Below, piece by piece: positions 1-62,589 of a stretch of 64,000 nt of DNA (positions are counted from its first letter, which is position 1; every line of letters begins with the position of its first letter). The DNA lies in the NCBI GenBank assembly GCA_022821275.1, contig JAJEDY010000033.1, positions 82,780 through 146,779 of the forward strand, written 5' to 3'. Made by a program: the position numbers and the translations under genes. This stretch comes from Candidatus Latescibacterota bacterium (GTDB lineage: Bacteria; Latescibacterota; UBA2968). Under the pieces are notes generated by a model. It was not told where the DNA came from. It worked only from the letters and a program-made list of their open reading frames with translations, and searched no databases.

Positions 1-1
1 A

Positions 2-1522
2 ACCGCCCTCATTTCCATTTTTTCCAATCTAATATCTTCGCTGAATGAATATTTCTCTGATAACCTCAACATGAGATTAAGTCTCAAAACAGGGTTGGGA
101 TTTTATTCTCATATCGGATACCTCAATTTTAGTTTTTTCGATCAAAGAGAAGCTGGCGAGATCATATCGAGATCAAGAGATGCCCTATCATCAGTAGGGG
201 GTATCATGAGTATCATCGGCACAACGTTTATGAGTGTGGGAACGCTGCTCGTATTCCCGCCTATCTTGTTCTATATGAACTGGAAGTTGGCTTTGCTAAG
301 TTTGGCTGTGTTGCCGTTTGATGCTGTGATATCGTGGTTCATGTCGAAATATACAGCCAGAAAAACCAGAGAAATTGCTGAGACGAATGCTGAAGCCTCT
401 GCAAAACGGATTGAGTTTATTTCGGGTATCAGAACTATCCAAGCTTTGAATATAGAAGATTATATGTTTTCTCGGATTAAGAACCTCACTATAGGAGCAG
501 CAAGGATAAGATTAAACATGTATTGCTGGCAGGGAGCATCGGGGTTTTTTATTAACGCTCTTCATGCTGGTGGGACGCTTCTGTATGGGTGGTATGGTTG
601 GACACAGATTCTCTCTGGCGATATGAGTCTGGGTAGTTATTTGGCTTTTACTGCTTATGTAGGCTATTTATCCGGCCCAATGCAAGGCTTGCTGAGTCTC
701 CTGATGGATTTTCGCACGGTTATTGTCCACATTGACCGCTTTCTCGAGGTGTACCACATTGTGCCAGAGATAAAAGAGGTTCCAGAATTACCCGAAGGCC
801 CTCCACTTGAAGGACACATTGAATTTCGCAATGTGTCCTTTTCATATAGAGAATCACAACCCGTTATCAGCGCCGTCACTGTTGAGATTGAGAGGGGAAA
901 GACCACAGCTATTGTGGGAAAAAGTGGCAATGGGAAGACGACATTTGTCCAATTGATTCCGAGATTTTACGATCCACAGGTTGGTGCTATTACCATTGAT
1001 GGGTGTAATATTAGACAGATGAGACTTTCGTCTCTGAGGCAACAAATTGGTCTCGTTCAGCAAGATCCATTTTTATTTTACGGCTCAATATTTGAAAATA
1101 TATCTGTAGGAAATAACAGCGTGGAAATGTGGCAAGTGGAGAGAGCAGCGCGGTTGGCGCATGCACATGATTTCATCCAGGAATTTTCAGAAGGATATAA
1201 CACCCAGGTGGGGGAACGAGGCACGCAGTTGTCGCAGGGGCAGAAACAGAGAATCGTGATCGCCAGAGCTATTCTTCGCAATACACCCATTCTGATTCTG
1301 GATGAAGCGACTTCAGCCCTGGATATGGAATCCGAAACAAAAATTCTACAAGCTTTACAAGAAATTAGAAAAGATAAAACAACGATTATTATCTCTCATA
1401 GACTTTCAACAATCAGGCATGCGGATTATATCCTGGTCATTGAAGACCATCGCGTGGCAGAACAAGGCACACACGATGAACTTATACATAACGGCAGAGT
1501 GTATAGTCAGCTTTACGGATGA
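2..1522 (+). CDS. ABC transporter permease/ATP-binding protein, exporter type (5'-truncated by window edge; C-terminal TMD part plus NBD)
   Basis: The frame is open from the window start. Walker A GKSGNGKTT, ABC signature LSQGQKQRIVIARA and Walker B ILILDEATSALD are all present. The TMD helices come before the NBD, as in peptide/bacteriocin exporters. Confidence 0.85.
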   Translation, partial: TALISIFSNLISSLNEYFSDNLNMRLSLKTGLGFYSHIGYLNFSFFDQREAGEIISRSRDALSSVGGIMSIIGTTFMSVGTLLVFPPILFYMNWKLALLSLAVLPFDAVISWFMSKYTARKTREIAETNAEASAKRIEFISGIRTIQALNIEDYMFSRIKNLTIGAARIRLNMYCWQGASGFFINALHAGGTLLYGWYGWTQILSGDMSLGSYLAFTAYVGYLSGPMQGLLSLLMDFRTVIVHIDRFLEVYHIVPEIKEVPELPEGPPLEGHIEFRNVSFSYRESQPVISAVTVEIERGKTTAIVGKSGNGKTTFVQLIPRFYDPQVGAITIDGCNIRQMRLSSLRQQIGLVQQDPFLFYGSIFENISVGNNSVEMWQVERAARLAHAHDFIQEFSEGYNTQVGERGTQLSQGQKQRIVIARAILRNTPILILDEATSALDMESETKILQALQEIRKDKTTIIISHRLSTIRHADYILVIEDHRVAEQGTHDELIHNGRVYSQLYG

Positions 1523-3372
1523 TCAGCCAAGAGGTTTTAATGGAGAACATAGACAAACTGGACTTTGGCAGATTGACGGGATTGGGCGTTAAAATAGCCA
1601 TTATCGACAGTGGAGCCGATTTTGAACATCCAGAAATCGGCCCTATTGCTCATGGTATAGACAGCAGAATAGATTCCGATGGACAGATTATTTGGGGAAC
1701 TGACTGTGCGGATCGATTGGGCCATGGCACTGCTTGCACGGGGATCATTCGCCAAATAGCACCTGACGCTGAAATTCATATTATCCGCATTTTCGAACAA
1801 TCTTTGGTTGCCGAGGGAAGAGTGTTAATAGCCGCTTTAAAGTGGGTCATAGATCAAGGGATAGATGTTGTCAATTTGAGTTTGGGCACAACGGATCGCC
1901 AGTATTTTGAGCCTATTCAAAAATTGTGCCAACAGGCTGCCCGCGAGAATATCATCCTCGTTGCAGCAGCGCACAACAGAGGAATCAAAAGTTATCCAGC
2001 TATTTTGCCAGATGTCATTGGCGTACAAGGAAGACCGATGCCAACGCTCAATGATTTTTATTTTCGAGCAAATAAAAATATTGAATGTGTCGCGCATGGC
2101 GGCGATCAGATTTTATGTTGGAGAAAATCGTCTAAAGTCATTGCAGCAGGGTCGAGTTTTGCCGCATCTCGTATCTCTGGCATCATTTGTTTGATTCGGC
2201 AAGTTTACCCATGTACCACTCTAAATACGACAAGGGAAATTCTATCGCTTCATTCCCGTCTGAAACCTACATTACCAATTCAAAATGATGCCGTATCTTC
2301 AGTCATTGAAGAACCAATATTGCCCTCAAAAACAAAAGAGATTCAACAATATCCTTGTATTGGACGAGCAGCCCTATTTGCAATCCACAAAGAGCTCGAA
2401 AATCTCATGCGTTTTGAGGACCTCCTCGAGTTTGATATACATCGTGTTGTCGATCCGTTGGAAAAGAGACTGGTGAGATATGATGACAATGGCCAGGCGA
2501 TTCTCCTGAATTCTGAACTAAGCGCGTGTCTTCAGGAGATATTGGAAAATGCCGACACGCTCATTATAGGCGATATGAGTCGTTTGAGTCGCCTTGTCGG
2601 ACGAGATGTATTGGCCGAAATTGCATATCGCGCTTTAGAAAACAATGTCAACATTTTCAGTTGTTTGCCACCGAAATACGATCATGACCTCTTTGCTATA
2701 ACAGCTAAAAAAGGGTTAAAGATATTCTATCCTCGATTAGACATAGAGGAGAGCGTTAGAGGAGATTTTTATTCTCAAATTGTAGATGCTCCGGTCATAG
2801 GCATTTGGAGCACGCAGGCACATTGTGATACATTTCGCGTTCAGCTCCAGTTGTTCAAAGAACTCGCCCAAATGGGATATAACATCGTTCAGATTGGAAC
2901 AGAGAACTATGCGGAGCTCTTTGATTTGGATTTCGTATTTCCAATTGGTTTGACAGACCAACTCGATATGTCTGAGCAGCACTATACATCGTATCTCAGC
3001 TATAAATTACACGCACTGACCCGAACAAAGCGGCCCGATCTCGTTTTGTTTTCGACCCGATCAACAATAATCCCAAATGATATTCATAAACCCGATCTTT
3101 CGTTTTTTCAGTCCATCGGTCTCCTAACGGGACTGAAACCGGATGCCTCTATCCTCGTTGTCGATGCTTCCGATCCGGACAACTATATTCAAGATGCGAT
3201 AGAAGCACTTCGCATCATGGGGCAATCGGCTACTATTTTACTCGTTGTTGAAAATGATAGGGATAGGATAGATGTTTTAAAAAGAAAATGCGATATATCA
3301 GTATTAGATATTCAGAGCGATGATGCTTCCAAAAAGATGGCTGAAATTGTTATCGATTATTTTGGTAACTAA
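1519..3372 (+). CDS. S8 subtilisin-like serine peptidase (N-terminal ~260 aa) fused to ~350 aa uncharacterised C-terminal domain; no signal peptide
   Basis: Catalytic Asp in IAIIDSGAD, His in GHGTACTG, oxyanion Asn in AAAHN and Ser in GSSFAASRISG. The start forms an ATGA overlap with the upstream ABC gene stop. Confidence 0.8.
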   Translation: MISQEVLMENIDKLDFGRLTGLGVKIAIIDSGADFEHPEIGPIAHGIDSRIDSDGQIIWGTDCADRLGHGTACTGIIRQIAPDAEIHIIRIFEQSLVAEGRVLIAALKWVIDQGIDVVNLSLGTTDRQYFEPIQKLCQQAARENIILVAAAHNRGIKSYPAILPDVIGVQGRPMPTLNDFYFRANKNIECVAHGGDQILCWRKSSKVIAAGSSFAASRISGIICLIRQVYPCTTLNTTREILSLHSRLKPTLPIQNDAVSSVIEEPILPSKTKEIQQYPCIGRAALFAIHKELENLMRFEDLLEFDIHRVVDPLEKRLVRYDDNGQAILLNSELSACLQEILENADTLIIGDMSRLSRLVGRDVLAEIAYRALENNVNIFSCLPPKYDHDLFAITAKKGLKIFYPRLDIEESVRGDFYSQIVDAPVIGIWSTQAHCDTFRVQLQLFKELAQMGYNIVQIGTENYAELFDLDFVFPIGLTDQLDMSEQHYTSYLSYKLHALTRTKRPDLVLFSTRSTIIPNDIHKPDLSFFQSIGLLTGLKPDASILVVDASDPDNYIQDAIEALRIMGQSATILLVVENDRDRIDVLKRKCDISVLDIQSDDASKKMAEIVIDYFGN

Positions 3373-3432
3373 TCAGATGTTGGAGACATTGCTTTAATAT
3401 TCAAGAGCAAATGAAATTGGAAAGGATATCAC

Positions 3433-4527
3433 ATGGCCTATCCACTGGCTATTTTTACACCCAGAATCGGTGCTTATTCTGAAACCTTTATTCACAAGCA
3501 TATAGAGAGATTATTACCCGGTCAAACGGTTGTTCTATCCCATGTAATCAGAAAGGTGAAATTTTGGGAAACATCATGCCCAACCCTCATTCTCAGCGAA
3601 ATCTCTCTGCCACGGTTTGGAAAGAAGAGAAAAATTGCTGCGTTTTCGCAGGCAATCCGTCAATTTTCGACTTTTCACGGCGTTGAAGTGATGATGGGCG
3701 AATTTTTAGATGTCTCATTGCCCATTTTTGAAATCGTGCGAGACATGGGGATACCATTTTATGTCCATTCACATGGTTATGATATGTCAGAGCGTCTTGA
3801 AGACCCGATGTGGCGAGAAGCATATCTTGCATACAATGGTGCCGCAGGAATCATAACAGTCAGCGAATTTAGCAGAAATCGACTGATAGATATTGGTTTA
3901 GAACCAGGTTTAATTAAGGTTGTCCCTTATGGTATTGATGTCCCTGATTCCTATTGCCGGAGGACTTCAGAGACTGTTTACTGTCTCGCAGTGGGGCGGA
4001 TGGTACCCAAAAAAGCACCTCTGATAACGATCAGAGCATTTGAGAAGGCAAGCCGCGAATGTCCTAATCTGCATTTGGATTTTATCGGTGATGGGGTATT
4101 ATTTTCTGCTGTAGAAGATTATGTTGAGAAAAATCAACTTTCTGATAAAATCACACTTCATGGTAGTCAACCAAATGATTTCGTTTTAGACCTGATGAAA
4201 AAATCAGAAATATTTTTACAGCACAGCATGACCGATCCTCAAACGGGCAATGAGGAAGGCTTGCCGGTTGCCATATTGGAAGCCATGGCAAATGGGTTAC
4301 CTGTCATAACTTCAAAGCATGCAGGCATTCCAGAAGCCGTAATTTCTGGCGTAAATGGTTATCTGGTGAATGAAGGTGATGAAAACAGCATGGCTCATTG
4401 TATTATTGATTTATACAATGACTCCGCAATGCGTGAAAAATTAGGGCGGAATAGTTGGCTACGTGCAAAGGAAAATTTTTCTTGGGAGGTAGAGAGACGA
4501 CATCTCATTAAGATCATGGATTTATAA
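3433..4527 (+). CDS. Glycosyltransferase family 1 (GT4-like, retaining GT-B)
   Basis: C-terminal EGLPVAILEAMANGLPVITSKHAGIPE is the GT1 EX7E region. It is 364 aa and a ggaaagga RBS sits upstream. Confidence 0.8.
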   Translation: MAYPLAIFTPRIGAYSETFIHKHIERLLPGQTVVLSHVIRKVKFWETSCPTLILSEISLPRFGKKRKIAAFSQAIRQFSTFHGVEVMMGEFLDVSLPIFEIVRDMGIPFYVHSHGYDMSERLEDPMWREAYLAYNGAAGIITVSEFSRNRLIDIGLEPGLIKVVPYGIDVPDSYCRRTSETVYCLAVGRMVPKKAPLITIRAFEKASRECPNLHLDFIGDGVLFSAVEDYVEKNQLSDKITLHGSQPNDFVLDLMKKSEIFLQHSMTDPQTGNEEGLPVAILEAMANGLPVITSKHAGIPEAVISGVNGYLVNEGDENSMAHCIIDLYNDSAMREKLGRNSWLRAKENFSWEVERRHLIKIMDL

Positions 4528-6126
4528 CGGCACATCGATATCAAATGCCGCTGTAATCAATTCTCGCGTATAATCCGTTTGTGGATTTGCAAATACGGTT
4601 TCTGTTGCGCCGTGTTCTACAACGACGCCGTCCTTCATCACGACGAGTTCATTGGCCAGTGCGCGCACGACCCGCAAGTCGTGGCTGATAAATAAATAAG
4701 CCAGATCGTGATCTTTTTGCAAGCGCCGGAGCAAGTCGATAATTTGCGACTGCACGGTCATATCCAGCGCACTTGTGGGTTCGTCCAGGACCACAAATCG
4801 GGGGCGCAATACCATGGCGCGCGCAATGGCAATGCGCTGTCGTTGTCCGCCTGAGAACTCGTGTGGAAAGCGATCCATCATTCCGGGTTCAAGCCCTACT
4901 TCATCCATTATTTCTGCTACGAGGTCTCGGCGTTTGTGATCGCTATCGCCCATGTCGTGAACCCGCAATCCCTCGGCTATAATGTGAAAGACCGATAGGC
5001 GCGGGCTTAAGGACCCGAAGGGGTCTTGAAAAACAATTTGCATCTCTCGTCTTAAGGGGCGCAGTGTCTTACTCGGCAGGTTCTGAATGCCCTGTCCGTT
5101 AAACTCGATTGGTCCCTGGCTGCTCAGCAAACGCAACAGGGCCAATCCCAATGTTGTTTTGCCCGAGCCGGATTCGCCGACAACACCGACGGTATGCCCG
5201 GCGCGAATGGTTACTGAAATGCCATCTACGGCTTTTATATGCCCGATGGTTCGCCGCAAAAATCCCCGCTGAATGGGGAACCACACTTTCAGATTATCTG
5301 CCTCGACGACGATGGGTGTCGATCCGTTTAGCGCGGTTGCTGTTCCCTTTGGCTGTGCATTTAGAAGTTTTTGTGTATAGGTGTGTTGCGGTTGCTCGAA
5401 GATGCGCGCGGTGTCTCCTTCTTCTACAATTTTCCCCTGGGTCATTACATAGACGCGATCCGCCACATGCCGAACGATTGTCAGGTCGTGCGTGATGAGC
5501 AAAATCGCCATGCCAAATTCGTCTTGCAGGTCTTTGAGCAATTTCAAAATTTGCGCTTGAATCGTCACATCCAGCGCAGTTGTAGGCTCATCGGCAATGA
5601 GTAAATCCGGCTCATTGGCCAGGGCCATGGCGATCATCACGCGTTGCCGCTGACCGCCCGATAGCTGGTGGGGATAGGATTTGAGGCGCATTTCGGGGTC
5701 GGGCAAGTGTACTTTTTGCAACAAGTTTATCGTGTGTTCCCGCGCTTGTTCTCGCGTCATTTTGCGATGTAACATCAGGGTTTCGCCGATCTGTTTTTCA
5801 ATTGTATGTAGCGGATTCAGTGAGGTCATCGGCTCCTGAAAAATCATCGCAATGCGGTCGCCGCGCAGTTGTTGCAGTCGCTCTTGTGGCGCGCCCAGCA
5901 TTTCCTCTCCGTCAAATTGCACGCTGCCGTGTGGATGTACAGCGCGCGGATAGGGGAGCAATTGCAATACGGAAAGTGCCGAGACGGATTTGCCCGAGCC
6001 CGATTCGCCTACCAGCGCGACGGTTTCGCCTTTTTCAATGTGAAACGATACGCCGCGCACAGCTTCGATGACCTGGTCTTCGAGTTGAAAATGCACGCCT
6101 AAATTTTGAACGTCTAACAAGCTCAC
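4522..6126 (-). CDS. yejF: Peptide ABC importer ATP-binding protein with two fused NBDs (YejF-like)
   Basis: Two copies of Walker A (GESGSGKS/GESGSGKT) and signature (LSGGQRQRV/FSGGQRQRI). The start is chosen at a GTG forming a GTGA overlap with the upstream permease stop; the ORF extends further 5' with a non-homologous N-terminus. Confidence 0.75.
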   Translation of the reverse strand: MSLLDVQNLGVHFQLEDQVIEAVRGVSFHIEKGETVALVGESGSGKSVSALSVLQLLPYPRAVHPHGSVQFDGEEMLGAPQERLQQLRGDRIAMIFQEPMTSLNPLHTIEKQIGETLMLHRKMTREQAREHTINLLQKVHLPDPEMRLKSYPHQLSGGQRQRVMIAMALANEPDLLIADEPTTALDVTIQAQILKLLKDLQDEFGMAILLITHDLTIVRHVADRVYVMTQGKIVEEGDTARIFEQPQHTYTQKLLNAQPKGTATALNGSTPIVVEADNLKVWFPIQRGFLRRTIGHIKAVDGISVTIRAGHTVGVVGESGSGKTTLGLALLRLLSSQGPIEFNGQGIQNLPSKTLRPLRREMQIVFQDPFGSLSPRLSVFHIIAEGLRVHDMGDSDHKRRDLVAEIMDEVGLEPGMMDRFPHEFSGGQRQRIAIARAMVLRPRFVVLDEPTSALDMTVQSQIIDLLRRLQKDHDLAYLFISHDLRVVRALANELVVMKDGVVVEHGATETVFANPQTDYTRELITAAFDIDVPL

Positions 6127-7229
6127 GCGCTCTTGCCCTCCGTTTGCGATAGGGTTTTGCGGACATCGAATGCATCGCGCACGGCTTCGCCGATAAATAC
6201 GAGTAGCGATAACATAATTGCCAGAATAAAAAATCCAGATAGACCCAGCCAGGGAGCCTGCAAATTGCGCTTGCCCTGATTGAGCAATTCTCCCAGTGAG
6301 GGAGAGGGGGGCGGAAGGCCAAAACCGAGAAAGTCCAGCGAGGTCAATACCGTGACAGATCCCACCAGTACAAAGGGCAAGAAGGTCAGTGTTGCCACCA
6401 TAGCATTGGGCAATACGTGTCGCCACATAATTGTCAAATCATTGACACCCAGAGCGCGTGCGGCGCGTACAAAATCAAAATTGCGCGCGCGCAAGAACTC
6501 GGCTCGCACCACACCGACGAGACGCATCCAGGAGAACAGCAGCATGATGACCAAGAGTGTCCAGAAAGTCGGCTCGATAATGCTGGCGATAATGATGATG
6601 ATAAACAGGGTGGGTAGCCCGCCCCAAATTTCGATAAATCTTTGAAATATGAGATCGACCCACCCTCCCAAGTAGCCTTGCACTGCGCCGGCTGCAATGC
6701 CTACTACAGAACTGAATACTGTGAGGGCGAGGGCAAATAAGACCGATAACCGAAATCCGTAAATCAATCGCGCGGTTACATCGCGTGCCTGATCATCGGT
6801 GCCCAGATAGTTTTGTATAGAAGGTGGTGCAGGTGCGGGATGTTTGAGTTCGTAGTTGATCGTATCGTAACGAAACGGTACCAGGGGCCAGATGATCCAT
6901 CCGTCTTTTTCAATTAGTTCTTGTACAAACGGATCGCGGTACTCGGCTTCGGTTTCAAAGTCGCCGCCAAAAGTTGTTTCGGGATAGGCTTTTAATGCGG
7001 GAAAATAAAACGCCCCCTTGTGTCGGACCAAAAGGGGTTTGTCATTGGCGATAAATTCTGCGGGCAAGCTCAATCCGAACAGGACGAGAAATATCCACAG
7101 GCTATAATAGCCGCGGCGATTTGCCTTAAAATTGTCCAGGCGTCGGCGCGTGAGGCTCGAAATTCGAAAGCCCAAAAATCGGTCTTCGCGCTCGGTGAGC
7201 GTATTATACTTCTCTGCTTTCAAAATCAA
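6123..7229 (-). CDS. yejE: Peptide ABC importer permease, DppC/YejE family
   Basis: [19 protein letters not shown] matches the YejE N-terminal region. A BPD-transporter permease fold is evident from the hydrophobic segments. The exact start is uncertain. Confidence 0.7.
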
Positions 7230-8310
7230 TCCTCGGATCTACCAGTGTATAAGTCAGGTCACTTACCAATTGCATCACCAATCCCAGCAAGGTAAAAAAG
7301 TAAAGCGTGGCAAACATGATCGGGTAATCGCGGTTGACCGTGGCTTCGTAGCCCAGGAGGCCCAGGCCGTCGAGGGAAAAAATAATCTCGGTCAATAGCG
7401 ATCCCGTGAACAGGATATTGACAAATGCACTCGGAAATCCCGCGATGACGATGAGCATCGCATTGCGAAAAACGTGCCCGTACAATACGCGGCGCTCTTC
7501 CAATCCCTTTGCCCGCGCCGTCATGACGTATTGTTTGTTGATTTCGTCCAGAAACGAATTTTTTGTCAGGAGGGTCAACCCGGCAAATCCACCAATTACC
7601 ATGGATGCGATGGGCAGTGCGAGGTGCCAAAAATAATCGGTGAGTTTGTGAAATAGACCAAACTGATCCCATTCGGGGGAGGTCAATCCCCTCAGAGGGA
7701 AAATGTCGAAATAACTGCCACCGGCAAATAATACAATTAAGAAGATCGCAAACATAAATCCCGGCACGGCATTGCCTATGACGATCACGCCCGAGGTCCA
7801 TACGTCGAATTTGGACCCGTCGCGCACGGCTTTGGTCACGCCCAGTGGTATGGAGATCAGGTAAACGAGCAATGTCGTCCACAAGCCGAGGGAGATCGAC
7901 ACGGGCATTTTGTCTATGACGATATCGACGACGGTTTGGTCGCGATAAAAACTTTCGCCAAAGTCGAATTGCAAATAGCGCACCATCATCTGATAGAAGC
8001 GCTCATGAGCCGGTTTGTCAAAGCCATACATCCGCTCCAATTCCGCGATGAGTTCGGGATCAAGCCCCTGCGCGCCGCGGTATTTGCTCGTCGATCCCTC
8101 ACTGCGCTGTCGGATTTGTTGAGATGAGGATAGTTCGCCTCCATCGCCGCCCACGCGGGCAGATGCATCTACTTCATGGCCCTGTATCTGTGCAATGGCT
8201 TGCTCAACAGGTCCACCAGGCGCGGCCTGAATGATCAAAAAATTGATCACCATGACGCCGAGTAGCGTTGGGAAGAATAGCAAAAAGCGTCTTAAAATAT
8301 AGGATCCCAT
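7204..8310 (-). CDS. yejB: Peptide ABC importer permease, DppB/YejB family
   Basis: Start trimmed to MGSYILRRF, whose ATG at 8310 lies immediately after the yejA stop. It is a multi-TM permease, and the longer ORF's N-terminal extension has no homology. Confidence 0.75.
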
Positions 8311-8315
8311 GGTAC

Positions 8316-10148
8316 TTAATTTTTCTTTAAGGCCTCTTCTTTTGCTGCATCGACCCACCACGTGTCGGGGAAATACTGCCAGGGTTGCGGCATGTATTTG
8401 GGCGAAATATCGGGTTTGCCAAATTTGTTCCAGTACACCACGCGGTGTGCGCGAATATGCCAGTGCGGCACTACGTAGTGACCCCACAGGAGTACGCGGT
8501 CCAATGCCCGGGTGGTCGCCACGAGAGTTTTTCTATCGGGCGCGTTGATTAGCTGATCTACCAGCGCATCTACGACGGGGTCTTTAATGCCCGCATAATT
8601 TCTCGTACCGGATTCATCCGCAGCCGCTGCTGTCCAGTAACCGCGCTGTTCGTTGCCCGGGCTTAATGACTGTCCCCTGAGGCTTACAATAGCATCAAAA
8701 TCGTATTCTTGAACGCGATTTTGATATTGCGATGTATCTACAATTTTAATTGCCGCTTCTACGCCGAGTCGCTCCAGGTTTTGAATGTACGGTCCTACAA
8801 TGCGTTCCCAGGAGGGCGAGTTGTTGATTAAAAATTCAATCATCATTGTTTCGCCAGATGCATCGTTGGTGAGTTTTCCTTCTTTTACTGACCACCCTGC
8901 TGATTTTAACATCCGCGTGGCTATGCGCAAGTTCTGGCGGATGTTGCCCGATCCATCTGTTGTGGGTGGTTTGTATTCTGCGGTAAATACTTCTTCGGGG
9001 ATCTGTCCTCGAAATGCTTCTAATATTTCGAGTTCCTGTCCCTGGGGCAATCCCGATGATGCGAGTTCTGTGTTGGAAAAGTAGCTCGTTGAACGCGCGT
9101 ATTGTCCGTAAAACAGATTGGTGTTGGTCCATTCAAAATCAAATGCATAAGCCAGTGCATGTCGCACTTTGGGATCGGCAAATTTGCTGCGTCGCGTGTT
9201 AAACCAGAATCCCTGCATCCCGGTGCCATTTTCGTGTGGGATTAATTCTTTGATCAATCTGCCCTCGGCCACAGCGGGAATATCGTACGCGGTTGCCCAG
9301 GATTTGGAGTTGTTTTGCAATGCAAAATCAAATTCGCCGCCTTTTTGCGCTTCGGTTGCTACGGTCCCGTCTTTGTAATAATCGTAGTGAATGACGTCCG
9401 GATTATAACGCCCTTTTTTTATGGTCAAATCCGCGCCCCAATAATTTTCGACGCGCTGGTACGTGATCGAACGCCCGGGATCGTGTGCTTCAATTTTGTA
9501 AGGTCCACTGCCGAGCGGCGGTTCCAGTGTTGTTTCTTCAAAATTTTTATCTTCCCAATAGTGTTTGGGTAAGATCGCCATTTGTCCGACAATGAGGGGC
9601 AATTCCCGATTGTCCTCTGCTGCAAATGTGAATTTCACCTGGCGTTCGCCAATCTTTTCAACCTGTTTTATATCCGCATAATAATTGCGATAAAAAGGAT
9701 GGCCTTTGGTTTGAATCGTTTGAAAAGTAAAAACGACATCTTCCGGAGTAATGGGTTTGCCGTCGTGCCATTGCGCCCCTGAGCGCAGTGTGAAGAGTAC
9801 CCATGAACGATCGGGGGGCACTTCAATGGATTCTGCGAGCAAACCGTATTCGGAAAAAGGCTCGTCCAGCGAGCGCTCTGTCAATGAGTCGTAGGTCAAC
9901 CCTAACCCATAAGCCGATACACCTTTGAGGATGAACTGATTCAAGCAATCATAGGTGCCGCCGGCACTCATTTTTATGGTGCCACCCCTGGGGGCATTGG
10001 GGTTGGCGTACTCAAAATGCTTAAAGTCAGGTCCGTATTTTAAGTCGCCGTACATCGATATCGCGTGCCCCTTGTAATTGGGCTGATCTGCCAATGGCAT
10101 TGCGACGACCAACAAACTCAATACCAGCGCGAATAAAATGGTTTTCAT
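8316..10148 (-). CDS. yejA: Extracellular solute-binding protein family 5 (oligopeptide/microcin-C-type SBP, YejA-like)
   Basis: Signal peptide [20 protein letters not shown]. It is 610 aa, the length and composition of SBP_bac_5 proteins, and is the first gene of the yejABEF-like operon. Confidence 0.8.
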
Positions 10149-10180
10149 GAACAGGCTCCTTTGTTAAAATGTCTAAGAAA

Positions 10181-10221
10181 GAGGGCAGACACACAGATTT
10201 GTCTCTACGTCTGCCCTTTTG
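10181..10221. promoter_or_regulatory. Stable stem-loop (GGGCAGAC / GTCTGCCC, 8 bp stem) followed by a T-run in the divergent yejA/birA intergenic region; lies in the yejA 5' leader
   Basis: Inverted repeat read directly in the sequence, with U-rich tracts on both strands. Confidence 0.25.
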
Positions 10222-10324
10222 AAGTATGTGGTATTTCCATTCTATTGTCAAGATACGGTGGTGGGAGATATACGGGTTCTGTCTTATGAAATAGACTTAA
10301 GCATACGAGATCAGGTTTTATTAT

Positions 10325-11068
10325 ATGAATTTTCTACCTCCCGAATGGCACGATCAACTCGCTTCGACCAATACGCATCTTCTCCAACGTTTATCTAAAG
10401 GTGAGAGGTTTTCTTCTGGCTTTGTTCTCGCAGCACGGGAGCAGACCGCTGGACGCGGGCGCTATCAGCGTCAATGGATCGCTCGTGCCAATGAGAATCT
10501 GACGTTTTCCTTTCTTCTCATTACAAGAGCCGCATTTTCCCAACTGACTTCTCTGCCTATTGCCATTGCGCTGGGTGTATCGGATGCGCTGAAAACTTAT
10601 GGCATCAGTGCGCAAACCAAGTGGCCCAATGATGTTTTGATCGACGGCGCTAAAATTTGTGGTATGCTCCTCGAGCGCAGCGATCAAAAACAGTCCGATG
10701 GTACGGCTATTGTTATTGGTATTGGTCTCAACGTGAACATGGATGCGACGACCGCGGTGCTGATTGACCGTCCCGTCACTTCTATGTGTCTTGAAACGGG
10801 ACGTGAGTACGACCTCGAACAGGTGCTCGCGCAAGTCCTTTCATCTGCTGCTCCATGGATTGACCGGTGGGAAGGAGAGGGTTTTGCCGCCTTTCGCACA
10901 GCATGGGAACACCGCTGTGTTTATATGGGTGAGGAGATTTCGGTTGGCGAAGGTGATGATGTGAAAACGGGCGTTCTCGCGGGGTTTGGCGACTGCGGCC
11001 AGCTTTTGTTGCGCGGGTCAGACGGTCGGGTGAGTGAGATTTGGGCAGGCGATGTCGCGGCGATTTAA
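10325..11068 (+). CDS. birA: Biotin--[acetyl-CoA-carboxylase] ligase (group I, no N-terminal HTH)
   Basis: GRGRYQRQWIA is the biotin-binding GRGRxGRxW motif. At 247 aa it lacks a DNA-binding domain. Confidence 0.8.
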   Translation: MNFLPPEWHDQLASTNTHLLQRLSKGERFSSGFVLAAREQTAGRGRYQRQWIARANENLTFSFLLITRAAFSQLTSLPIAIALGVSDALKTYGISAQTKWPNDVLIDGAKICGMLLERSDQKQSDGTAIVIGIGLNVNMDATTAVLIDRPVTSMCLETGREYDLEQVLAQVLSSAAPWIDRWEGEGFAAFRTAWEHRCVYMGEEISVGEGDDVKTGVLAGFGDCGQLLLRGSDGRVSEIWAGDVAAI

Positions 11069-11078
11069 GGGAGGGCGT

Positions 11079-12869
11079 TTATCCCACCATCGCAAGCGTC
11101 TGACCATTGGATACCTGATCGCCGACGTTGACGGGTATTTCGACGACTGTGCCCGCATTTGGAGAGGTGATCTGGACTTCCATTTTCATGGCTTCCAGAA
11201 TGAGGATCGCTTCGCCTGCCTGGACTTGATCTCCTGTGTGTTTCAAAATCCGAATGACTTTTCCGGGCATTTGCGCGCTTACGGGTTCGGTATTGGCGGG
11301 TGTTGATTCCTGTACGGATACCGTGTCTTCTATATCCACTGTATAAGCCGTGCCATCTACGGTGGCGATGTTGCCGTCAATTTGTACGCGCACGGATTTG
11401 CCATTGATCTGTAGCTTATATTCGGCTGCGCCGTCGGCAACTGGTACGGGTGCTTCATCCTGCTTTTCGATTTTCCGCACGCCAATTTCGGCATCGCCTT
11501 TCAAGAAGTCCATTCCCTTATCGCCGCACGTTGCGACGATGAAGATGTGTTCATCCGTTGCCTCAATTCCCTCGGCGTCCAACAGTTTCTTCGCGGCGCC
11601 TCTTCCCTTTTCGGGATCGGCATCATTGCGTTCGAGAGGTGGCTGGTCTGTGGGGTCAAGTCCCAACTGATTTGACGCGATTTTTACAACTTCGGGGTCG
11701 GGTGGGACGGGGGTTTTGCCAAAATAGCCGAGTACCATCTGCCCATAAGGTTCGGCGATTCTTTCCCAGGGACCGAACATCACATTGTTAAATGCCTGTT
11801 GAAAATAGAATTGCGATACGGGTGTGACAGATGTGCCAAAACCACCTCGCGCGACGACGTCGCCCATGGCTTTGATCATGTCGGGATATTTGTCCATGAT
11901 GCCATTGTCGCGCAACATCTGCGTGTTGGCCGTGAGCGCGCCGCCAGGCATCGGGCTCCAGGGGATCATGGGTTCGACTGCTGTGGCTTCTGGCGGCAAA
12001 AAGTAATCCGCCATGCATTCTTTAAACACTTCCTCGGCGTCGCGGACTTTCTCTATGTCGATATCCAGGTCGTAATTTGTGCCGCGAAGTGCGTGCCACA
12101 TCACCAGGATATCGGGTTGGCATGTGCCCCCTGAACACGGTGCCAGCGACAAGTCAATGGCATCGGCTCCCGCTTCCAGCGCGGCCAGATTGGCCTGTAC
12201 GCTGATCCCGGCCGTTTCATGGGTGTGAAAGTGGATAAATGTGCCGTCGGGCAGCAGTTGGCGCGCTCGTTTAATGGTTTCATACACTTTTGCCGGTACT
12301 GCGGTACCCGAAGCGTCCTTAAAGCACACGGAGTGATATGGAATATCGGCGTCTAAAATTTCGCGGAGTGTTTGTTCATAAAAATCTGCGTCGTGTGCGC
12401 CTGTGCAGCCGGGGGGCAATTCCATTAAGGTCACGCAGACTTGATGGTGCAATCCGGCTTCTGCGATGCATTGCCCGCTGTAGATCAAATTGTTGACGTC
12501 GTTGAGGGCGTCAAAATTGCGGATGGTCGTTATGCCGTGTTTTTTGAACAATTCGGCGTGTAGTTTGATGATGTCGCTCGACTGCGATTCCAATCCGACC
12601 ACATTCACCCCGCGCGCCAGGGTCTGCAAATTGGCCTCTGGTCCTGCGGCTTCCCGGAAGGCATCGGTCATTGCAAATGCATCTTCGTTGCAATAAAAGT
12701 ACAGGGACTGAAATCGCGCCCCGCCGCCGGCTTCATGGTAATCAATTCCGGCTTCGCGTGCGGCTTCTACTGCCGGTAAAAAGTCGGGCGTGAACACGCG
12801 CGCCCCATAAACCGACTGAAATCCGTCGCGAAATGCTGTATTCATAAATATTACTTTTTTCTTTGCCAT
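11079..12869 (-). CDS. oadA: Oxaloacetate decarboxylase alpha subunit / pyruvate carboxyltransferase with C-terminal biotinyl domain
   Basis: N-terminal carboxyltransferase TIM barrel (MNTAFRDGFQS) and a C-terminal biotin carrier with the EAMKME motif. Start trimmed to MAKKK (ATG at 12869), which has an aagga RBS. Confidence 0.8.
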   Translation of the reverse strand: MAKKKVIFMNTAFRDGFQSVYGARVFTPDFLPAVEAAREAGIDYHEAGGGARFQSLYFYCNEDAFAMTDAFREAAGPEANLQTLARGVNVVGLESQSSDIIKLHAELFKKHGITTIRNFDALNDVNNLIYSGQCIAEAGLHHQVCVTLMELPPGCTGAHDADFYEQTLREILDADIPYHSVCFKDASGTAVPAKVYETIKRARQLLPDGTFIHFHTHETAGISVQANLAALEAGADAIDLSLAPCSGGTCQPDILVMWHALRGTNYDLDIDIEKVRDAEEVFKECMADYFLPPEATAVEPMIPWSPMPGGALTANTQMLRDNGIMDKYPDMIKAMGDVVARGGFGTSVTPVSQFYFQQAFNNVMFGPWERIAEPYGQMVLGYFGKTPVPPDPEVVKIASNQLGLDPTDQPPLERNDADPEKGRGAAKKLLDAEGIEATDEHIFIVATCGDKGMDFLKGDAEIGVRKIEKQDEAPVPVADGAAEYKLQINGKSVRVQIDGNIATVDGTAYTVDIEDTVSVQESTPANTEPVSAQMPGKVIRILKHTGDQVQAGEAILILEAMKMEVQITSPNAGTVVEIPVNVGDQVSNGQTLAMVG

Positions 12870-30881: not shown

Positions 30882-30894
30882 TTCGGCATCTCCC

Positions 30895-31713
30895 TTATGT
30901 GCCGTAGAGTGTATCGGCTGTTTTGCCCAAAATCCATGCTCTGTCTTCATCTGACAAAAAATCCATCGCTTCAATTACGCGAAAACCAACTGCTTCTCCG
31001 CGTTGTGGATTCTCCGGAAATCCCGTACATCCCAGCATCCGTTCAGGCCCAAAAGCCTCGTACACGGCTCTGACATAGGGATACACATCCTCGTGTGGCC
31101 AGGGTTGCTCGGATATCCCATCAATCCGGGTCGCTTTAACAACGAGATTGGGATATTTTGCCGCTGCCAGCAAGATCCCGAAACTGCCGTTCAGCCCCTC
31201 GGACAGTATCGGCTCGCCCAGGTGATCTACTATCACATTTACCTCGGGAAATTGTTGCAACATCGGCTCCAGCAGTGGAATCTGATGGCAGCGTCCAAAC
31301 CATGTAAACGGCACGCCCAGTCTTTGTGCCGTCTCCCAAAGTGCATGCTGCCCAGGGTCTGACAACCACGACGCATCCCGATCTTTAATCGGATACAATC
31401 GCATTCCCTGCACCCCGTGATTCCGGTGCAGACGCGCCAGCGTTTCGGATGCGTCGGGTTTCTGGGGATCGATCAGCGCTACCCCGTGCAGGCGATCTGG
31501 AAATCGCCTCAAGCAATCGCACATATATCGATTGTCATACCCGTGATACATGCACTGGATCAGTACGGTGCGGTCTATTTCATTGAGATCCATGTACCTG
31601 ATGAGATTTTCCACCAGCCCCGGATAATCGGGCCGTTGCGCGGTCATGTCATCGTTATGGGTAAACGGCGGTGTCCCCATTGTCCATACGTGTACGTGAG
31701 AATCGATGCGCAT
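30895..31713 (-). CDS. Amidohydrolase-2 family metal-dependent hydrolase (TIM barrel)
   Basis: Start trimmed to MRIDSHVHVW, the HxH metal motif (ATG at 31713). Confidence 0.7.
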   Translation of the reverse strand: MRIDSHVHVWTMGTPPFTHNDDMTAQRPDYPGLVENLIRYMDLNEIDRTVLIQCMYHGYDNRYMCDCLRRFPDRLHGVALIDPQKPDASETLARLHRNHGVQGMRLYPIKDRDASWLSDPGQHALWETAQRLGVPFTWFGRCHQIPLLEPMLQQFPEVNVIVDHLGEPILSEGLNGSFGILLAAAKYPNLVVKATRIDGISEQPWPHEDVYPYVRAVYEAFGPERMLGCTGFPENPQRGEAVGFRVIEAMDFLSDEDRAWILGKTADTLYGT

Positions 31714-52627: not shown

Positions 52628-52821
52628 GTCGGATGAAGCAACAAAGCGTTCTGGCAATGCCGCTTGAAGGATCCACCTCAAGCGAAATGGAAGCCGCCGA
52701 ATAACGCAGACGCAATCAAACTCACGGTGTAAATTATGAGGTGGAGGTCATGGAGGCCCGCGTTGCGCTACGGCACCAAGACCCCTCGCCGTCAGGGAGT
52801 CTCAACATGACGACAACAGCC

Positions 52822-62048: not shown

Positions 62049-62230
62049 GTGAGATGCCCCAGATCTGAGAGTTGGTCGTATTTTGGACTAACGCAACAGT
62101 CAGACCTCAAGCAAATATCAGGCCAATGTCACAAAATTGAGTGATAAAAAAGGCTCGACAGAAACGCAGGCACCTCATTATGCTTTCAATATGCAGTATT
62201 GCGGTCTTATTCACAACTTGAATTTAAATC

Positions 62231-62260
62231 CGCAGATGGACGCAGATGGACACAGATGAA
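62231..62260. repeat. 3x CGCAGATGRA tandem repeat, second copy of the element seen at 45625..45654
   Basis: Read directly. It sits in a 540-bp non-coding region. Confidence 0.5.
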
Positions 62261-62589
62261 AGGCAAAAGGGTACATTTTGAGCCATGAACAGGCGGCATA
62301 GTGAAAGATATGTGCCACTTGCCCGAAGCCAGCCAATCCCCCTGTCAGAATCAGGATGGGCAGGATGTGAGGATTTACAGGATACCCGTCTCCTCTCAAG
62401 CCACCCATCCAAACTCATATGGTTGTTATGTGTTTCTATATTCTCACGGAATATGGGTTATTTCTGCGCGATGCTATCCTAATAGTCGTCCCGCATGTAT
62501 TTGAAGGGTTTAAAACCCTTATCAAGGAAATTGCGGTCTCTCCGTACTCGCATCCATGCACGCGCATATTGTAGTAATGTATCAACGTT

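What the first reader, a model, noticed from the sequence alone, without database searches (positions are those of the whole stretch)
1..4527. AT-rich cassette at the contig edge: peptide-type ABC exporter, intracellular S8 peptidase fused to an unknown 350-aa domain, and a GT1 glycosyltransferase
The first 4.5 kb is clearly AT-richer than the rest of the window. It encodes, tightly coupled (ATGA overlap), the end of an ABC exporter and a signal-peptide-less subtilisin with an intact D/H/N/S set fused to a C-terminal domain I cannot assign. That architecture is reminiscent of PatA-like or LanP-like leader peptidases. A family-1 glycosyltransferase follows. This combination is what one expects for maturation and export of a ribosomal, possibly glycosylated, peptide. 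Any precursor and modification genes would lie upstream of the window.
Basis: partly seen in the sequence, partly recalled or inferred. Interest (0 to 1): 0.55.

Follow-up and report, generated by a model that had tools for sequence, protein, structure and literature searches.

The report
Leader-guided small-protein export cassette
The window's AT-rich left edge is the last third of a mobile nine-gene cassette from an uncultured Latescibacterota bacterium that most likely cuts a conserved leader off a highly variable ~107-residue protein and exports it, which makes it an undescribed relative of bacteriocin and peptide-maturation systems.

Summary
Window 1-4527 is AT-rich (GC 0.423 vs 0.522±0.018) and encodes the last 506 codons of an ABC exporter, a signal-less S8 peptidase fused to a ~340-aa domain, and a glycosyltransferase.

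A 100%-identical contig (L001) supplies the missing upstream DNA. The island is about 11.3 kb and nine genes: AraC-type response regulator, GT28-like GT, HlyD-type adaptor, 107-aa ORF, TPR + C39-like lipoprotein, 127-aa lipoprotein, ABC, S8 fusion, GT.

The "unknown" domain has a DUF1611/DgcN fold and is related to TIGR04066 "peptide maturation" proteins. Its Walker-A motif is degenerate in this clade only, and the ACP and radical-SAM partners seen in relatives are absent.

The 107-aa ORF has a conserved 22-residue leader (86% identity) and a hypervariable core (31%). The same leader type sits in front of unrelated Gly-rich cores in distant S8-DUF1611 loci.

The core and the TPR/C39 gene form an exchangeable allele block.

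Best reading: a QhpE/QhpF-like system that removes the leader and exports a polymorphic small protein. PatA/LanP membership, the GT1 assignment and glycosylation are not supported or were not tested. I rate it a new variant of a known kind.

The parts
1..1522 (+). 3' part (codons 62-567, frame from base 2) of a 567-aa half-size ABC exporter (six-helix membrane domain plus ATPase). It has no N-terminal C39 peptidase domain.
   Evidence: Pfam ABC_membrane 119.8 bits and ABC_tran 110.9 bits. The full gene is L001 6657-8360, and its ABC_membrane match starts at residue 22. NCBIfam does not separate the MsbA-like, HlyB-like and bacteriocin-type models (337-380 bits, all below their cutoffs).
1540..3372 (+). 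S8 peptidase-DUF1611 fusion protein, 610 aa. An alternative ATG at 1519 would give 617 aa and an ATGA overlap with the ABC stop codon.
   Evidence: P0001 is 100% identical and is called from the ATG at 1540.
1585..2244 (+). Subtilase catalytic domain, closest to QhpE-type cytoplasmic leader peptidases. Catalytic codons: D 1606-1608, H 1723-1725, N 1975-1977, S 2155-2157.
   Evidence: Pfam PF00082. NF049966 QhpE 135.5 bits, cutoff 165. D, H and S invariant and N >=90% conserved in 40 homologues. AF2 pLDDT about 85-97 in this domain, and Foldseek matches subtilisins at E 1e-14.
2266..2346 (+). Disordered interdomain linker (residues 243-269).
   Evidence: pLDDT below 50 for residues 243-269. This stretch and the end of the S8 domain are the most variable part between L001 and L002 (66-70%).
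2347..3369 (+). DUF1611/DgcN-fold domain (Rossmann-like lobe plus P-loop lobe), homologous to TIGR04066 peptide-maturation proteins.
   Evidence: PF07755 matches 9 of 11 aligned family members but neither of the two window-clade sequences in that alignment. PDB profile hit 2g0t, E 3e-6. AF2 pLDDT 82.5, pTM 0.84. Foldseek: 2g0t 6.8e-11 (TM 0.63-0.65), 2obn, and 7xrj DgcN 5.7e-9. TIGR04066 scores 59 bits here and 139 bits over the model's full length in the outgroup L089.
2809..2838 (+). Degenerate Walker-A position. It reads STQAHCDTFR where all 33 readable distant members have GT[SG]xxQ[GN]KFT (mostly GTS[SA]QQGKFT).
   Evidence: with coordinates. The same degeneration is present in all six window-clade members and in L092.
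3433..4527 (+). GT-B glycosyltransferase of the Glycos_transf_1 / GT4 type. It is the last gene of the cassette, and its stop overlaps by 6 nt the stop of the convergent yejF-like gene.
   Evidence: Pfam PF00534 108.7 bits and PF13439. Present in L001, L002/L003 and L091/L092; absent in L084; replaced by an IS in L086; split by an IS in L087. Coordinates.
4522..10148 (-). Right-hand flank, not part of the cassette: a yejABEF-like oligopeptide ABC importer operon at normal GC. It marks the island boundary.
   Evidence: The same cassette in L091/L092 has different flanks.

Best explanation
Window 1-4527 is the 3' third of an ~11.3-kb, nine-gene, AT-rich mobile cassette of a Latescibacterota lineage.

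Proposed steps, all inferred rather than shown:
1. A 107-aa pre-protein encoded 2.9 kb upstream of the window carries a conserved 22-residue N-terminal leader (MKTLVKRxxRPYHLELG[C/W/Y]VEAY) and a hypervariable ~85-residue hydrophilic core.
2. The cytoplasmic S8 domain removes the leader near AY|G, as QhpE does for QhpC.
3. The half-size ABC exporter, which has no peptidase domain of its own, exports the core together with the HlyD/AprE-type adaptor.
4. The fused DUF1611 domain has lost its Walker-A Gly-Lys and its ACP partner. It probably now serves as a non-catalytic docking or scaffold module.
5. Outside the cytoplasm the core meets a TPR + C39-like cysteine-peptidase lipoprotein that diversifies together with it (binding, and possibly a second cleavage), and a conserved 127-aa lipoprotein that is a paralogue of the core.
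6. An AraC-type response regulator controls the cassette.
7. The GT28-like and GT4 glycosyltransferases may glycosylate the Ser/Thr-rich core or an unrelated acceptor.

The biological role (bacteriocin, signal or recognition tag) is not resolved.
For: Gene content and synteny:
- L001 equals the window (0 mismatches in 8888 bp) and shows the nine genes.
- The same order occurs in L002/L003, L084, L086, L087 and, at a different chromosomal site, in L091/L092.
- The cassette has low GC at both sites.

Leader and core:
- Leader identity is 0.86 and core identity 0.31 among six alleles.
- The core DNA cannot be aligned inside flanks that are 92-96% identical.
- Only 10 hits were found among 1.84e9 representatives.

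The leader is shared across the wider family:
- L010, L012, L013, L089, L090 and, weakly, L008 have small ORFs with the same leader pattern and unrelated, mostly Gly/Ala-rich hydrophobic cores, next to S8-DUF1611 genes.
- About 55 S8-only loci give no hit better than E~2.

Export logic:
- The conserved 127-aa paralogue of the core (hhalign 95.6%, E 1e-8) carries a lipoprotein signal where the 107-aa protein carries the leader. The fold therefore works outside the cytoplasm, and the 107-aa protein needs a non-Sec route.
- The ABC has no C39 domain.
- The S8 domain has no signal peptide or prodomain and is closest to QhpE.
- QhpE cleaves a 28-residue leader in the cytoplasm before export through the ABC exporter QhpF (PMC7876137).

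DUF1611 domain. ACP and rSAM are present in relatives and absent here.

Co-diversification:
- L001-L084: small ORF 96%, TPR/C39 92%, other genes 77-94%.
- L001-L002: 42% and 69%, other genes 90-99%.
- The DNA mosaic is shown.
- An independent second case: L092 is closest to L002 only for these two genes.
- The C39-like Cys and His are conserved in all alleles.
Against: - No step has been shown experimentally. The cleavage site is only inferred from where conservation ends.
- The small ORF and the TPR/C39 gene are adjacent, so joint replacement could reflect linkage alone rather than functional pairing.
- No outer-membrane channel is encoded in the cassette, so release from the cell is uncertain.
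- The S8 domain scores below the QhpE cutoff (135.5 vs 165).
- Leader residue 18 (Cys in most alleles) is Trp in the window strain.
- IS insertions and losses in L086, L087 and L093 show the cassette is dispensable and often decaying.
- The two glycosyltransferases have no assigned acceptor.
- The host assignment to Latescibacterota rests on a contig-length match for a 77%-identical relative.
Confidence: 0.62

Rival explanations
1. A glycosylated bacteriocin (glycocin-like RiPP) cluster. The GTs modify the core, the S8 domain removes the leader, the ABC and adaptor export an antimicrobial product, and the co-varying TPR/C39 lipoprotein or the 127-aa lipoprotein provides self-immunity. This shares the processing and export steps with the best explanation. 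It adds two further claims: glycosylation of the core and antimicrobial function.
For: - The outgroup cores are Gly/Ala-rich, hydrophobic and end in Cys, which is bacteriocin-like.
- The core is 18-23% Ser+Thr with conserved DTT and GDT motifs.
- The GT28-like GT is ancestral to the family, since L089 has a close homologue.
- Allele diversity with a linked partner gene resembles toxin-immunity polymorphism.
- The related SacP23/CLI_3235 cluster yields an active bacteriocin (PMC10731318).
Against: - The window-clade core is an ~85-residue, acidic, Cys-free hydrophilic protein, unlike known glycocins or class II bacteriocins.
- The GT4 is lost or disrupted in 3 of 6 lineages.
- The GTs are GT-B enzymes of the GT28/GT1-like and GT4 types, whereas known glycocin S/O-glycosyltransferases are GT2 (my own knowledge).
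- The conserved lipoprotein does not co-vary with the core, which is unusual for an immunity protein.
Confidence: 0.18
2. A strain-specific signalling or kin-recognition system. The exported polymorphic protein is a pherotype-like ligand. The co-diversifying periplasmic TPR/C39 lipoprotein is its specific receptor or processing enzyme. The orphan AraC-type response regulator provides the transcriptional output.
For: - Exchangeable allele blocks inside conserved machinery.
- Variability is concentrated in the N-terminal TPR part of the lipoprotein (46-48% between L001 and L002).
- A TPR protein lies next to the precursor in three subfamilies (L010, L089, L090).
- A response regulator is conserved at the head of the cassette.
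Against: - The cassette has no histidine kinase.
- Nothing links the lipoprotein to the regulator.
- The TPR proteins of the outgroups lack signal peptides, so the topology differs between subfamilies.
- The adjacency of the two variable genes may explain their joint replacement.
Confidence: 0.12
3. A glycolipid or polysaccharide export cassette (DevBCA/HepA- or MsbA-like ABC plus adaptor plus two GTs), in which the peptidase and the small ORFs are incidental.
For: - The ABC scores similarly against the MsbA-related, HepA and glucan-exporter models (337-380 bits), and the adaptor hits DevB weakly.
- The cassette has two GTs, and the GT4's best NCBIfam hits are EPS/PEP-CTERM-type enzymes, all far below their cutoffs.
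Against: - No polymerase, flippase, sugar-nucleotide or lipid-carrier genes are present.
- The peptidase fusion, ABC, adaptor and leader-bearing ORF travel together across subfamilies that lack the GT4.
- The S8 catalytic triad is invariant.
- The GT4 is dispensable.
Confidence: 0.05
4. A decaying relic. The cassette is an inactivated remnant of an ACP-dependent peptide-maturation system and has no current function.
For: - The Walker A is degenerate, and the ACP and BtrH-like genes are lost.
- Relatives carry IS insertions, split genes and remnants.
- The response regulator in L084 is truncated.
Against: - In the window strain all nine ORFs are intact.
- The S8 triad and the C39-like Cys/His are conserved.
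- ABC, adaptor and GT28 are 85-99% identical across lineages and at two chromosomal sites.
- The degenerate motif is itself conserved across the clade.
Confidence: 0.03

Closest known systems
QhpE/QhpF of the quinohemoprotein amine dehydrogenase (qhp) operon
   Same: A cytoplasmic, prodomain-less subtilisin removes an N-terminal leader (28 residues in QhpC) from a small protein, which a dedicated ABC exporter without a peptidase domain then exports (PMC7876137). QhpE is the best NCBIfam match for the S8 domain.
   Different: - The score is below the family cutoff (135.5 vs 165).
- There are no qhpA/B/D/G genes, no radical-SAM crosslinking enzyme and no Cys in the core.
- The peptidase is fused to a DUF1611 domain.
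- The substrate is polymorphic and is paired with a TPR/C39 lipoprotein.
TIGR04066-type peptide maturation systems (CLI_3235 / SacP23 sactipeptide clusters)
   Same: These clusters combine a subtilase, a TIGR04066 (DUF1611-like) protein and an ABC exporter around a leader-bearing precursor (PMC10731318). The window's C-terminal domain is homologous to TIGR04066.
   Different: - There the protease and the TIGR04066 protein are separate genes and come with a radical-SAM maturase and an ACP-like protein. Here they are fused, the rSAM and ACP are absent, and the Walker A is degenerate.
- The precursor is unrelated: 107 aa, with a Cys-free core.
DUF1611 / DgcN (D-glutamate N-acetyltransferase; PDB 7xrj, 2g0t, 2obn)
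   Same: The two-lobe fold is the same (Foldseek E 6.8e-11 to 5.7e-9, TM about 0.6-0.65).
   Different: - Sequence identity is 12-17%.
- The window sequence is not recognised by PF07755.
- The Gly-Lys of the P-loop is lost.
- It is fused to a protease, in a peptide-export context rather than amino-acid catabolism.
Class II bacteriocin / double-glycine-leader export (C39-ABC plus accessory protein) and type I secretion
   Same: An N-terminal leader is removed at export, and a dedicated ABC works with an HlyD-family adaptor.
   Different: - The ABC lacks the C39 domain.
- The leader has no GG motif and ends in AY-[G/S/N]-acidic.
- Cleavage is assigned to a separate cytoplasmic serine peptidase.
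- The C39-like domain present here is on a periplasmic TPR lipoprotein.
- No outer-membrane factor is encoded.
ACP-containing S8-DUF1611 systems of Latescibacterota, Gemmatimonadota, KSB1 and Ignavibacteriota (uncharacterised; L004-L016, L089, L090)
   Same: They share the same fusion protein (35-41% identity), the leader type, the ABC, the adaptor, the AraC-type regulator, a TPR protein next to the precursor, and a GT28-like GT in L089.
   Different: - Those have an intact GxxxxGK motif, an adjacent ACP, often a BtrH-like protein or an rSAM enzyme, and short Gly-rich hydrophobic cores.
- The window clade has none of these.
- It has instead an 85-residue hydrophilic core, a periplasmic TPR/C39 lipoprotein and a lipoprotein paralogue of the core.

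Membership tests
Peptidase family S8 (subtilases) | Asp-His-Ser catalytic triad with the oxyanion Asn, in subtilase order, and the subtilisin fold | tested here: met
   PF00082 70.9 bits against a cutoff of 21.8. D23, H62 and S206 invariant and N146 >=90% conserved in 40 homologues. Foldseek matches subtilisins at E 1e-14.
QhpE (NF049966) | Score at or above the curated cutoff | tested here: not met
   135.5 bits against a cutoff of 165. The outgroup L089 scores 159.8.
QhpE (NF049966) | qhp operon context (QhpA/B/C/D/G) | tested here: not met
   None of these genes is present in L001 or in the syntenic loci.
PatA/PatG cyanobactin proteases (TIGR03895) | Family-level score and the DUF/macrocyclase architecture | tested here: not met
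   26.8 bits against a cutoff of 421. There are no cyanobactin genes.
LanP lanthipeptide leader peptidases | Association with lanthipeptide synthetase genes (LanB/C, LanM, LanKC or LanL) and a LanA precursor | tested here: not met
   No such genes lie within 8 kb upstream or 5 kb downstream. The core has no Cys.
DUF1611 / DgcN | Two-lobe DUF1611 fold | tested here: met
   AF2 pTM 0.84. Foldseek: 2g0t, 2obn and 7xrj at E 7e-11 to 6e-9. PDB profile hit 2g0t at 3e-6.
DUF1611 / DgcN | Pfam PF07755 match and an intact GxxxxGK P-loop | tested here: not met
   The window sequence matches 0 Pfam families, whereas 9 of 11 relatives match. The motif reads STQAHCDTFR instead of GTS[SA]QQGKFT.
TIGR04066 peptide maturation system | Score at or above the cutoff, with the partner ACP-like protein (TIGR04069) and radical-SAM maturase | tested here: not met
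   59.2 bits against a cutoff of 200. No ACP or rSAM occurs in any window-clade locus.
Peptide-cleavage/export ABC transporters (TIGR01193, bacteriocin_ABC) | N-terminal C39 peptidase domain on the transporter | tested here: not met
   The full-length protein is 567 aa and its ABC_membrane match starts at residue 22. The NCBIfam alignment starts at model position 205.
RiPP / leader-peptide-guided maturation (general definition) | A precursor with a conserved leader and a variable core, next to a leader peptidase and an exporter | tested here: met
   Leader identity 0.86 against core identity 0.31. The same leader is shared across subfamilies with unrelated cores.
RiPP / leader-peptide-guided maturation (general definition) | Post-translational modification of the core by enzymes encoded in the cluster | not testable with these tools
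   The only candidate modifiers are the two GTs and the degenerate DUF1611 domain. Mass spectrometry is needed.
Type I secretion system | ABC plus membrane-fusion protein plus outer-membrane factor, and a C-terminal secretion signal on the substrate | tested here: not met
   The ABC and an HlyD/AprE-type adaptor are present. No outer-membrane factor is in the cassette. The conserved signal on the substrate is N-terminal.
Glycosyltransferase, Pfam Glycos_transf_1 (CAZy GT4-type GT-B) | Pfam PF00534 C-terminal domain with a GT4-type N-terminal domain | tested here: met
   PF00534 108.7 bits and PF13439 35.8 bits.
   The window GT has no MGT/UGT-type hit among the Pfam and NCBIfam hits shown. Weak MGT/YjiC/MurG similarity belongs to the upstream GT28-like gene instead.
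Known anti-phage defence systems (PADLOC) | A specific model hit to any cassette protein | tested here: not met
   Only generic ATPase, TPR and subtilase similarities were found.

The most novel reading that the evidence does not exclude
The cassette may be a strain-specific self/non-self or pherotype module of an uncultured phylum. A leader-guided exporter delivers a hypervariable ~85-residue protein to a co-diversifying periplasmic TPR + C39-like peptidase lipoprotein. The ligand-partner pair is swapped between lineages by recombination while the processing and export machinery stays constant. That machinery descends from ACP-dependent peptide-acylating bacteriocin systems and keeps a dead DUF1611 enzyme domain as a scaffold.
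Probability: 0.2. Interest if true: 0.75.

Novelty: new variant of a known kind. Interest (0 to 1): 0.55.

Why it matters
- It identifies the substrate and the likely logic of a widespread but uncharacterised protein family. S8-DUF1611 fusions gave 235 hits in the word-filtered search, from several candidate and poorly studied phyla.
- It defines a new leader type (…K[R/P]…Y…[V/L]xAY-[G/S/N]-acidic) that can be used to mine precursors which no curated library recognises.
- The window's clade is a natural experiment. The enzyme domain has lost its nucleotide-binding motif and its ACP partner, while the peptidase, the exporter and the leader are retained. The cargo has changed from a short Gly-rich peptide to a polymorphic small protein paired with a fast-evolving periplasmic TPR/cysteine-peptidase lipoprotein.
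- If the polymorphism reflects toxin-immunity or ligand-receptor specificity, this would be a first look at strain-level antagonism or recognition in Latescibacterota.
- A sequence-specific cytoplasmic leader peptidase could also be useful as a processing tool.

Tried and rejected
- Exact look-up of the 617-aa translation found nothing, because the gene is called from the ATG at 1540.
- The word-based search with the 107-aa ORF found only 3 relatives. Synteny and an exhaustive profile search were needed instead.
- PDB and Foldseek searches with the full-length fusion were swamped by subtilisins. I repeated them with the C-terminal domain alone.
- Literature searches for DUF1611 gave nothing relevant. 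DarH/BtrH led to dialkylresorcinol pathways, not RiPPs.
- No Rfam family and no tRNA is present in the window.
- Promoter and terminator scans were no better than shuffles.
- No terminal repeats mark the island.
- PADLOC ruled out membership of a known defence system.
- P0129 (2162 aa, 26 repeats) is a spurious repeat translation.
- P0135 could not be located on any contig.
- P0134 lies on a 2.5-kb contig with transposases, so it gives no useful context.
- The C39-like domain has no sequence relative in the PDB.
- My first tblastn query for the DUF1611 part was cut out of frame, so that column should be ignored.
The host assignment is therefore indirect.
- A lipoprotein reading of the leader (…LELGC…) was considered and rejected. 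The N-terminus has no hydrophobic core, and the Cys is replaced by Trp or Tyr in two alleles.

Full report
**1. Observation**

The first 4.5 kb of the window holds three co-directional ORFs:
- one open from the window edge to 1522;
- 1519/1540-3372;
- 3433-4527.

Pfam assigns ABC_membrane + ABC_tran to the first. It assigns Peptidase_S8 to only the first ~240 residues of the second, and Glycos_transf_1 plus Glyco_transf_4 to the third.

The block has GC 0.423. Equal-sized windows in the rest average 0.522 ± 0.018 and never fall below 0.490. GC3 is 0.36-0.42, against 0.52-0.57 in the neighbouring operon.

The S8 catalytic Asp, His and Ser are invariant, and the oxyanion Asn is at least 90% conserved, in an alignment of 40 homologues (window coordinates). 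The Asp lies 23 residues from the N-terminus, so there is no signal peptide and no prodomain.

- The ATGA overlap exists. However an AAGAGG ribosome-binding site precedes the ATG at 1540, and the relative L084 has no upstream ATG. The likely start is therefore 1540.
- The edge is the window's edge, not the end of the DNA.
- The GT is of the GT4 type, not CAZy GT1 (Pfam-to-CAZy correspondence from my own knowledge).

**2. The missing upstream half**

A protein 100% identical to the S8 fusion (P0001) lies on a contig, L001, that matches the window without a mismatch over 8,888 bp and extends 6,838 bp further upstream. The complete AT-rich block has nine genes, all at GC 0.40-0.44:

| Gene | L001 coordinates |
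|---|---|
| AraC-type response regulator | 144-947 |
| GT28-like GT-B glycosyltransferase | 977-2251 |
| HlyD/AprE-type adaptor | 2311-3504 |
| 107-aa ORF, no family match | 3673-3996 |
| 691-aa lipoprotein, N-terminal TPR repeats plus Peptidase_C39_2 domain | 4135-6210 |
| 127-aa lipoprotein, no family match | 6225-6608 |
| 567-aa ABC exporter | 6657-8360 |
| S8 fusion | 8378-10210 |
| GT4 | 10271-11365 |

- In L002 the low-GC block runs from about 1,200 to about 13,100 with sharp edges.
- The same gene order occurs in five relatives at the same chromosomal site, next to a yejABEF-like operon.
- In L091/L092 it occurs at a different site, between YceI/IDH and DUF58/chromate-transporter genes, and is still AT-rich.
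- The cassette therefore moves as a unit.
- One relative, L084, lies on a contig of 5,557,749 bp. That is the length of OZ220741.1, a Candidatus Latescibacterota chromosome. The window's lineage is inferred to be Latescibacterota.

**3. The "unknown" 350-aa domain**

- More distant homologues of the fusion (35-41% identity, many phyla) carry PF07755/PF17396, that is DUF1611.
- A profile of the C-terminal domains hits the DUF1611 structure 2G0T at E 3e-6.
- An AlphaFold model of the window's own domain (pLDDT 82.5, pTM 0.84) matches 2G0T, 2OBN and the N-acetyltransferase DgcN (7XRJ) over both lobes, at E 7e-11 to 6e-9 and TM about 0.6-0.65.
- NCBIfam relates the domain to TIGR04066, "peptide maturation system protein". 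The score is 59 bits here, and 139 bits over the model's full length in the outgroup L089.
- All 33 distant members with a readable motif keep a Walker-A-like GT[SG]xxQ[GN]KFT, mostly GTS[SA]QQGKFT (a 34th is truncated there). All six members of the window's clade, and L092, read [G/S]T[Q/R]A[H/S][C/H]DTFR instead, so the Gly-Lys is gone.
- The full-length model shows two well-folded domains joined by a disordered linker at residues 243-269.

**4. What travels with the fusion protein**

I clustered the neighbours of 24 full-length family loci. The recurring partners are:
- an ABC exporter in nearly all loci;
- an acyl-carrier protein directly beside the fusion gene in Latescibacterota, KSB1 and Ignavibacteriota loci;
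- radical-SAM/SPASM peptide maturases in the Ignavibacteriota and Clostridia loci;
- a BtrH-like protein;
- an HlyD-type adaptor;
- an AraC-type response regulator;
- a TPR protein next to a small ORF;
- a GT28-like GT in L089, whose N-terminus is nearly identical to the one in L001.

In the published SacP23/CLI_3235 sactipeptide cluster, a subtilase, a TIGR04066 protein, an ACP-like protein, a radical-SAM enzyme and an ABC exporter are separate genes (PMC10731318).

The window's clade has neither an ACP nor a radical-SAM enzyme. That fits the loss of the P-loop. The DUF1611 domain here is most simply read as a retained non-catalytic module. This is an inference.

**5. The substrate**

- The 107-aa ORF is the most variable gene of the cassette. 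Its first 22 residues (MKTLVKRxxRPYHLELG[C/W/Y]VEAY) are 86% identical on average among six distinct alleles. The remaining ~85 residues are 31% identical.
- Between L001 and L002 the core DNA cannot be aligned, although the flanks are 92-96% identical.
- An exhaustive profile search of 1.84 billion representatives found only ten hits, about eight of them distinct alleles.
- The core has no Cys, is 18-23% Ser+Thr, and keeps short islands: DTT, GD[ST][VI]xV, GDT, WD and a C-terminal DT.
- The same leader pattern precedes unrelated cores in other subfamilies of the fusion protein:
  - L089: MKVTLVKPSRHYSLDVVSAYNDEDD + Gly-rich hydrophobic core ending in Cys
  - L090: similar
  - L013: MSKLIKPQKQSYTGEDSQVLAYS + hydrophobic core
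  - L010/L012: MKI[V/A]KLHKPQRMG…NVLAYS[G/S]EEDE
  - L008: weak match
- A leader HMM finds these and nothing better than E≈2 in about 55 loci that hold only a QhpE-like S8 gene.
- The leader is thus the constant feature shared by the machinery, and the core is free to vary. This is the signature of leader-guided processing.
- Curated libraries recognise none of these precursors.

**6. Why export**

- The 127-aa protein is a conserved paralogue of the core (81-97% identical among lineages; hhalign 95.6%, E 1e-8). It carries a lipoprotein signal peptide in the place where the 107-aa protein carries the leader.
- The fold therefore works outside the cytoplasm. The 107-aa protein has no Sec-type signal and needs another route.
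- The cassette supplies an ABC exporter that lacks a peptidase domain of its own, an adaptor, and a cytoplasmic subtilase whose nearest named relative is QhpE.
- QhpE cuts a 28-residue leader from QhpC in the cytoplasm before the ABC exporter QhpF translocates it (PMC7876137).
- By analogy the S8 domain removes the leader near AY|G and the ABC/adaptor pair exports the core. Every step here is inferred.

**7. The allele block**

Protein identities between loci:

| Pair | Small ORF | TPR/C39 lipoprotein | Other genes |
|---|---|---|---|
| L001-L002 | 42% | 69% (46-48% in the N-terminal TPR part) | 90-99% |
| L001-L084 | 96% | 92% | 77-94% |

- At the DNA level, L001-L002 identity drops to 63-86% across L001 3,600-6,300, where L001-L084 rises to 87-99% (93-99% over 3,300-5,400).
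- In a cassette at another chromosomal site (L092), the small ORF is closest to L002's (74% vs 41-49%) and so is the TPR/C39 protein (79% vs 67-72%). The other seven genes show no such preference.
- The TPR/C39 protein is the second most divergent gene in every pair.
- Its C39-like Cys (GxC[G/S]SATLK) and His (GH[F/V]TL[V/I]VGYDE) are conserved in all alleles, and most alleles have a lipobox.
- I read it as the cognate extracytoplasmic partner of the exported core, for binding through the TPR part and possibly a second cleavage.
- Caveat: the two genes are adjacent, so linkage alone could produce their joint replacement.
- The S8 fusion does not co-vary with the core, as expected if it reads the conserved leader.

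**8. Glycosyltransferases**

- The GT in the window is the last gene of the cassette at both chromosomal sites, so it is an original member.
- It is absent in L084, replaced by an IS in L086 and split by an IS in L087.
- The upstream GT28-like GT is conserved everywhere and is present in outgroup L089. It resembles UGT/YjiC/MurG enzymes only in the nucleotide-sugar-binding part.
- Whether either enzyme glycosylates the Ser/Thr-rich core cannot be decided from sequence.

**9. Rivals**

- A polysaccharide or glycolipid exporter is unlikely. There are no polymerase, flippase or precursor genes, and the peptidase, ABC and leader-bearing ORF travel together where the GT4 is missing.
- No known defence system matches.
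- A decaying relic is unlikely for the window strain. All nine ORFs are intact and the catalytic residues are conserved. Relatives do, however, show IS insertions, split genes and a remnant.
- The biological role (bacteriocin with immunity, strain-specific signal or recognition tag, or a structural envelope protein) is open. I give the glycosylated-bacteriocin reading about 0.18 and the signalling or recognition reading about 0.12, as elaborations of the same processing and export core.

**10. Comparison and novelty**

The system works like QhpE/QhpF and like leader-dependent bacteriocin export. It fails the membership tests for:
- QhpE (score and operon context);
- PatA and LanP;
- C39-ABC bacteriocin exporters;
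- type I secretion (N-terminal signal, no outer-membrane factor);
- the TIGR04066 system (score, ACP and rSAM partners).

The wider S8-DUF1611 family appears uncharacterised in the searchable literature. The window's clade is a derived form of it. I rate it a new variant of a known kind, interest 0.55.

Noticed in passing
window 35396-37483 (+) and 43622-45568 (-); 42000-43493 (+): Two paralogous DUF6785+DUF6784 proteins on opposite strands lie around a sulfatase gene. The 42-47 kb stretch has unusually strong GC skew (0.19-0.29).
   Followed up: no
window 49313-52627 (+) and 52741-54408 (+): A 1104-aa DUF499 protein is followed by an AAA_22/AAA_35 ATPase. This coincides with the window's GC peak (0.627 at 53-54 kb) and may be another foreign or NTPase-based module.
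   Followed up: no
window 62001-63500: A second low-GC spot (0.42) with no ORF of 220 aa or more.
   Followed up: no
L001 3724-3726 (leader residue 18 of the 107-aa ORF; upstream of the window): The otherwise conserved Cys in the leader (…LELGCVEAY…) is Trp in the window's strain and Tyr in L002. L084 carries the same core allele as the window strain but keeps Cys.
   Followed up: partly
L001 4140-4197 and 6218-6275: The signal-peptide coding segments of the TPR/C39 lipoprotein gene and the 127-aa lipoprotein gene form a 58-nt direct repeat at 84% identity. This suggests a shared origin or gene conversion of the export signal.
   Followed up: no
L084 and L010 (the L084 contig matches OZ220741.1, the L010 record, in length): By that length match, one Latescibacterota genome carries both a window-type cassette (degenerate P-loop, no ACP) and a paralogous system with an intact P-loop, an ACP, a CPBP protease and its own leader-bearing ORF.
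   Followed up: partly
L086 3397-5232 and 11984-13235; L087 7927-9084 and 12415-13572; L093 11013-11654: Transposases have repeatedly inserted into or next to the cassette. They split the ABC and GT4 genes in L087 and leave only an adaptor plus small-ORF remnant in L093.
   Followed up: partly
window 4522-10148 (-): A yejABEF-like oligopeptide/microcin-type ABC importer operon abuts the cassette, and its yejF-like stop codon overlaps the GT4 stop by 6 nt. The adjacency is absent at the cassette's second chromosomal site (L091/L092), so it is probably coincidental.
   Followed up: partly
window 28089-30974 (-): A 961-aa protein has a weak heparinase II/III-like C-terminal domain. Together with the sulfatase it hints at sulfated-polysaccharide use by the host.
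   Followed up: no
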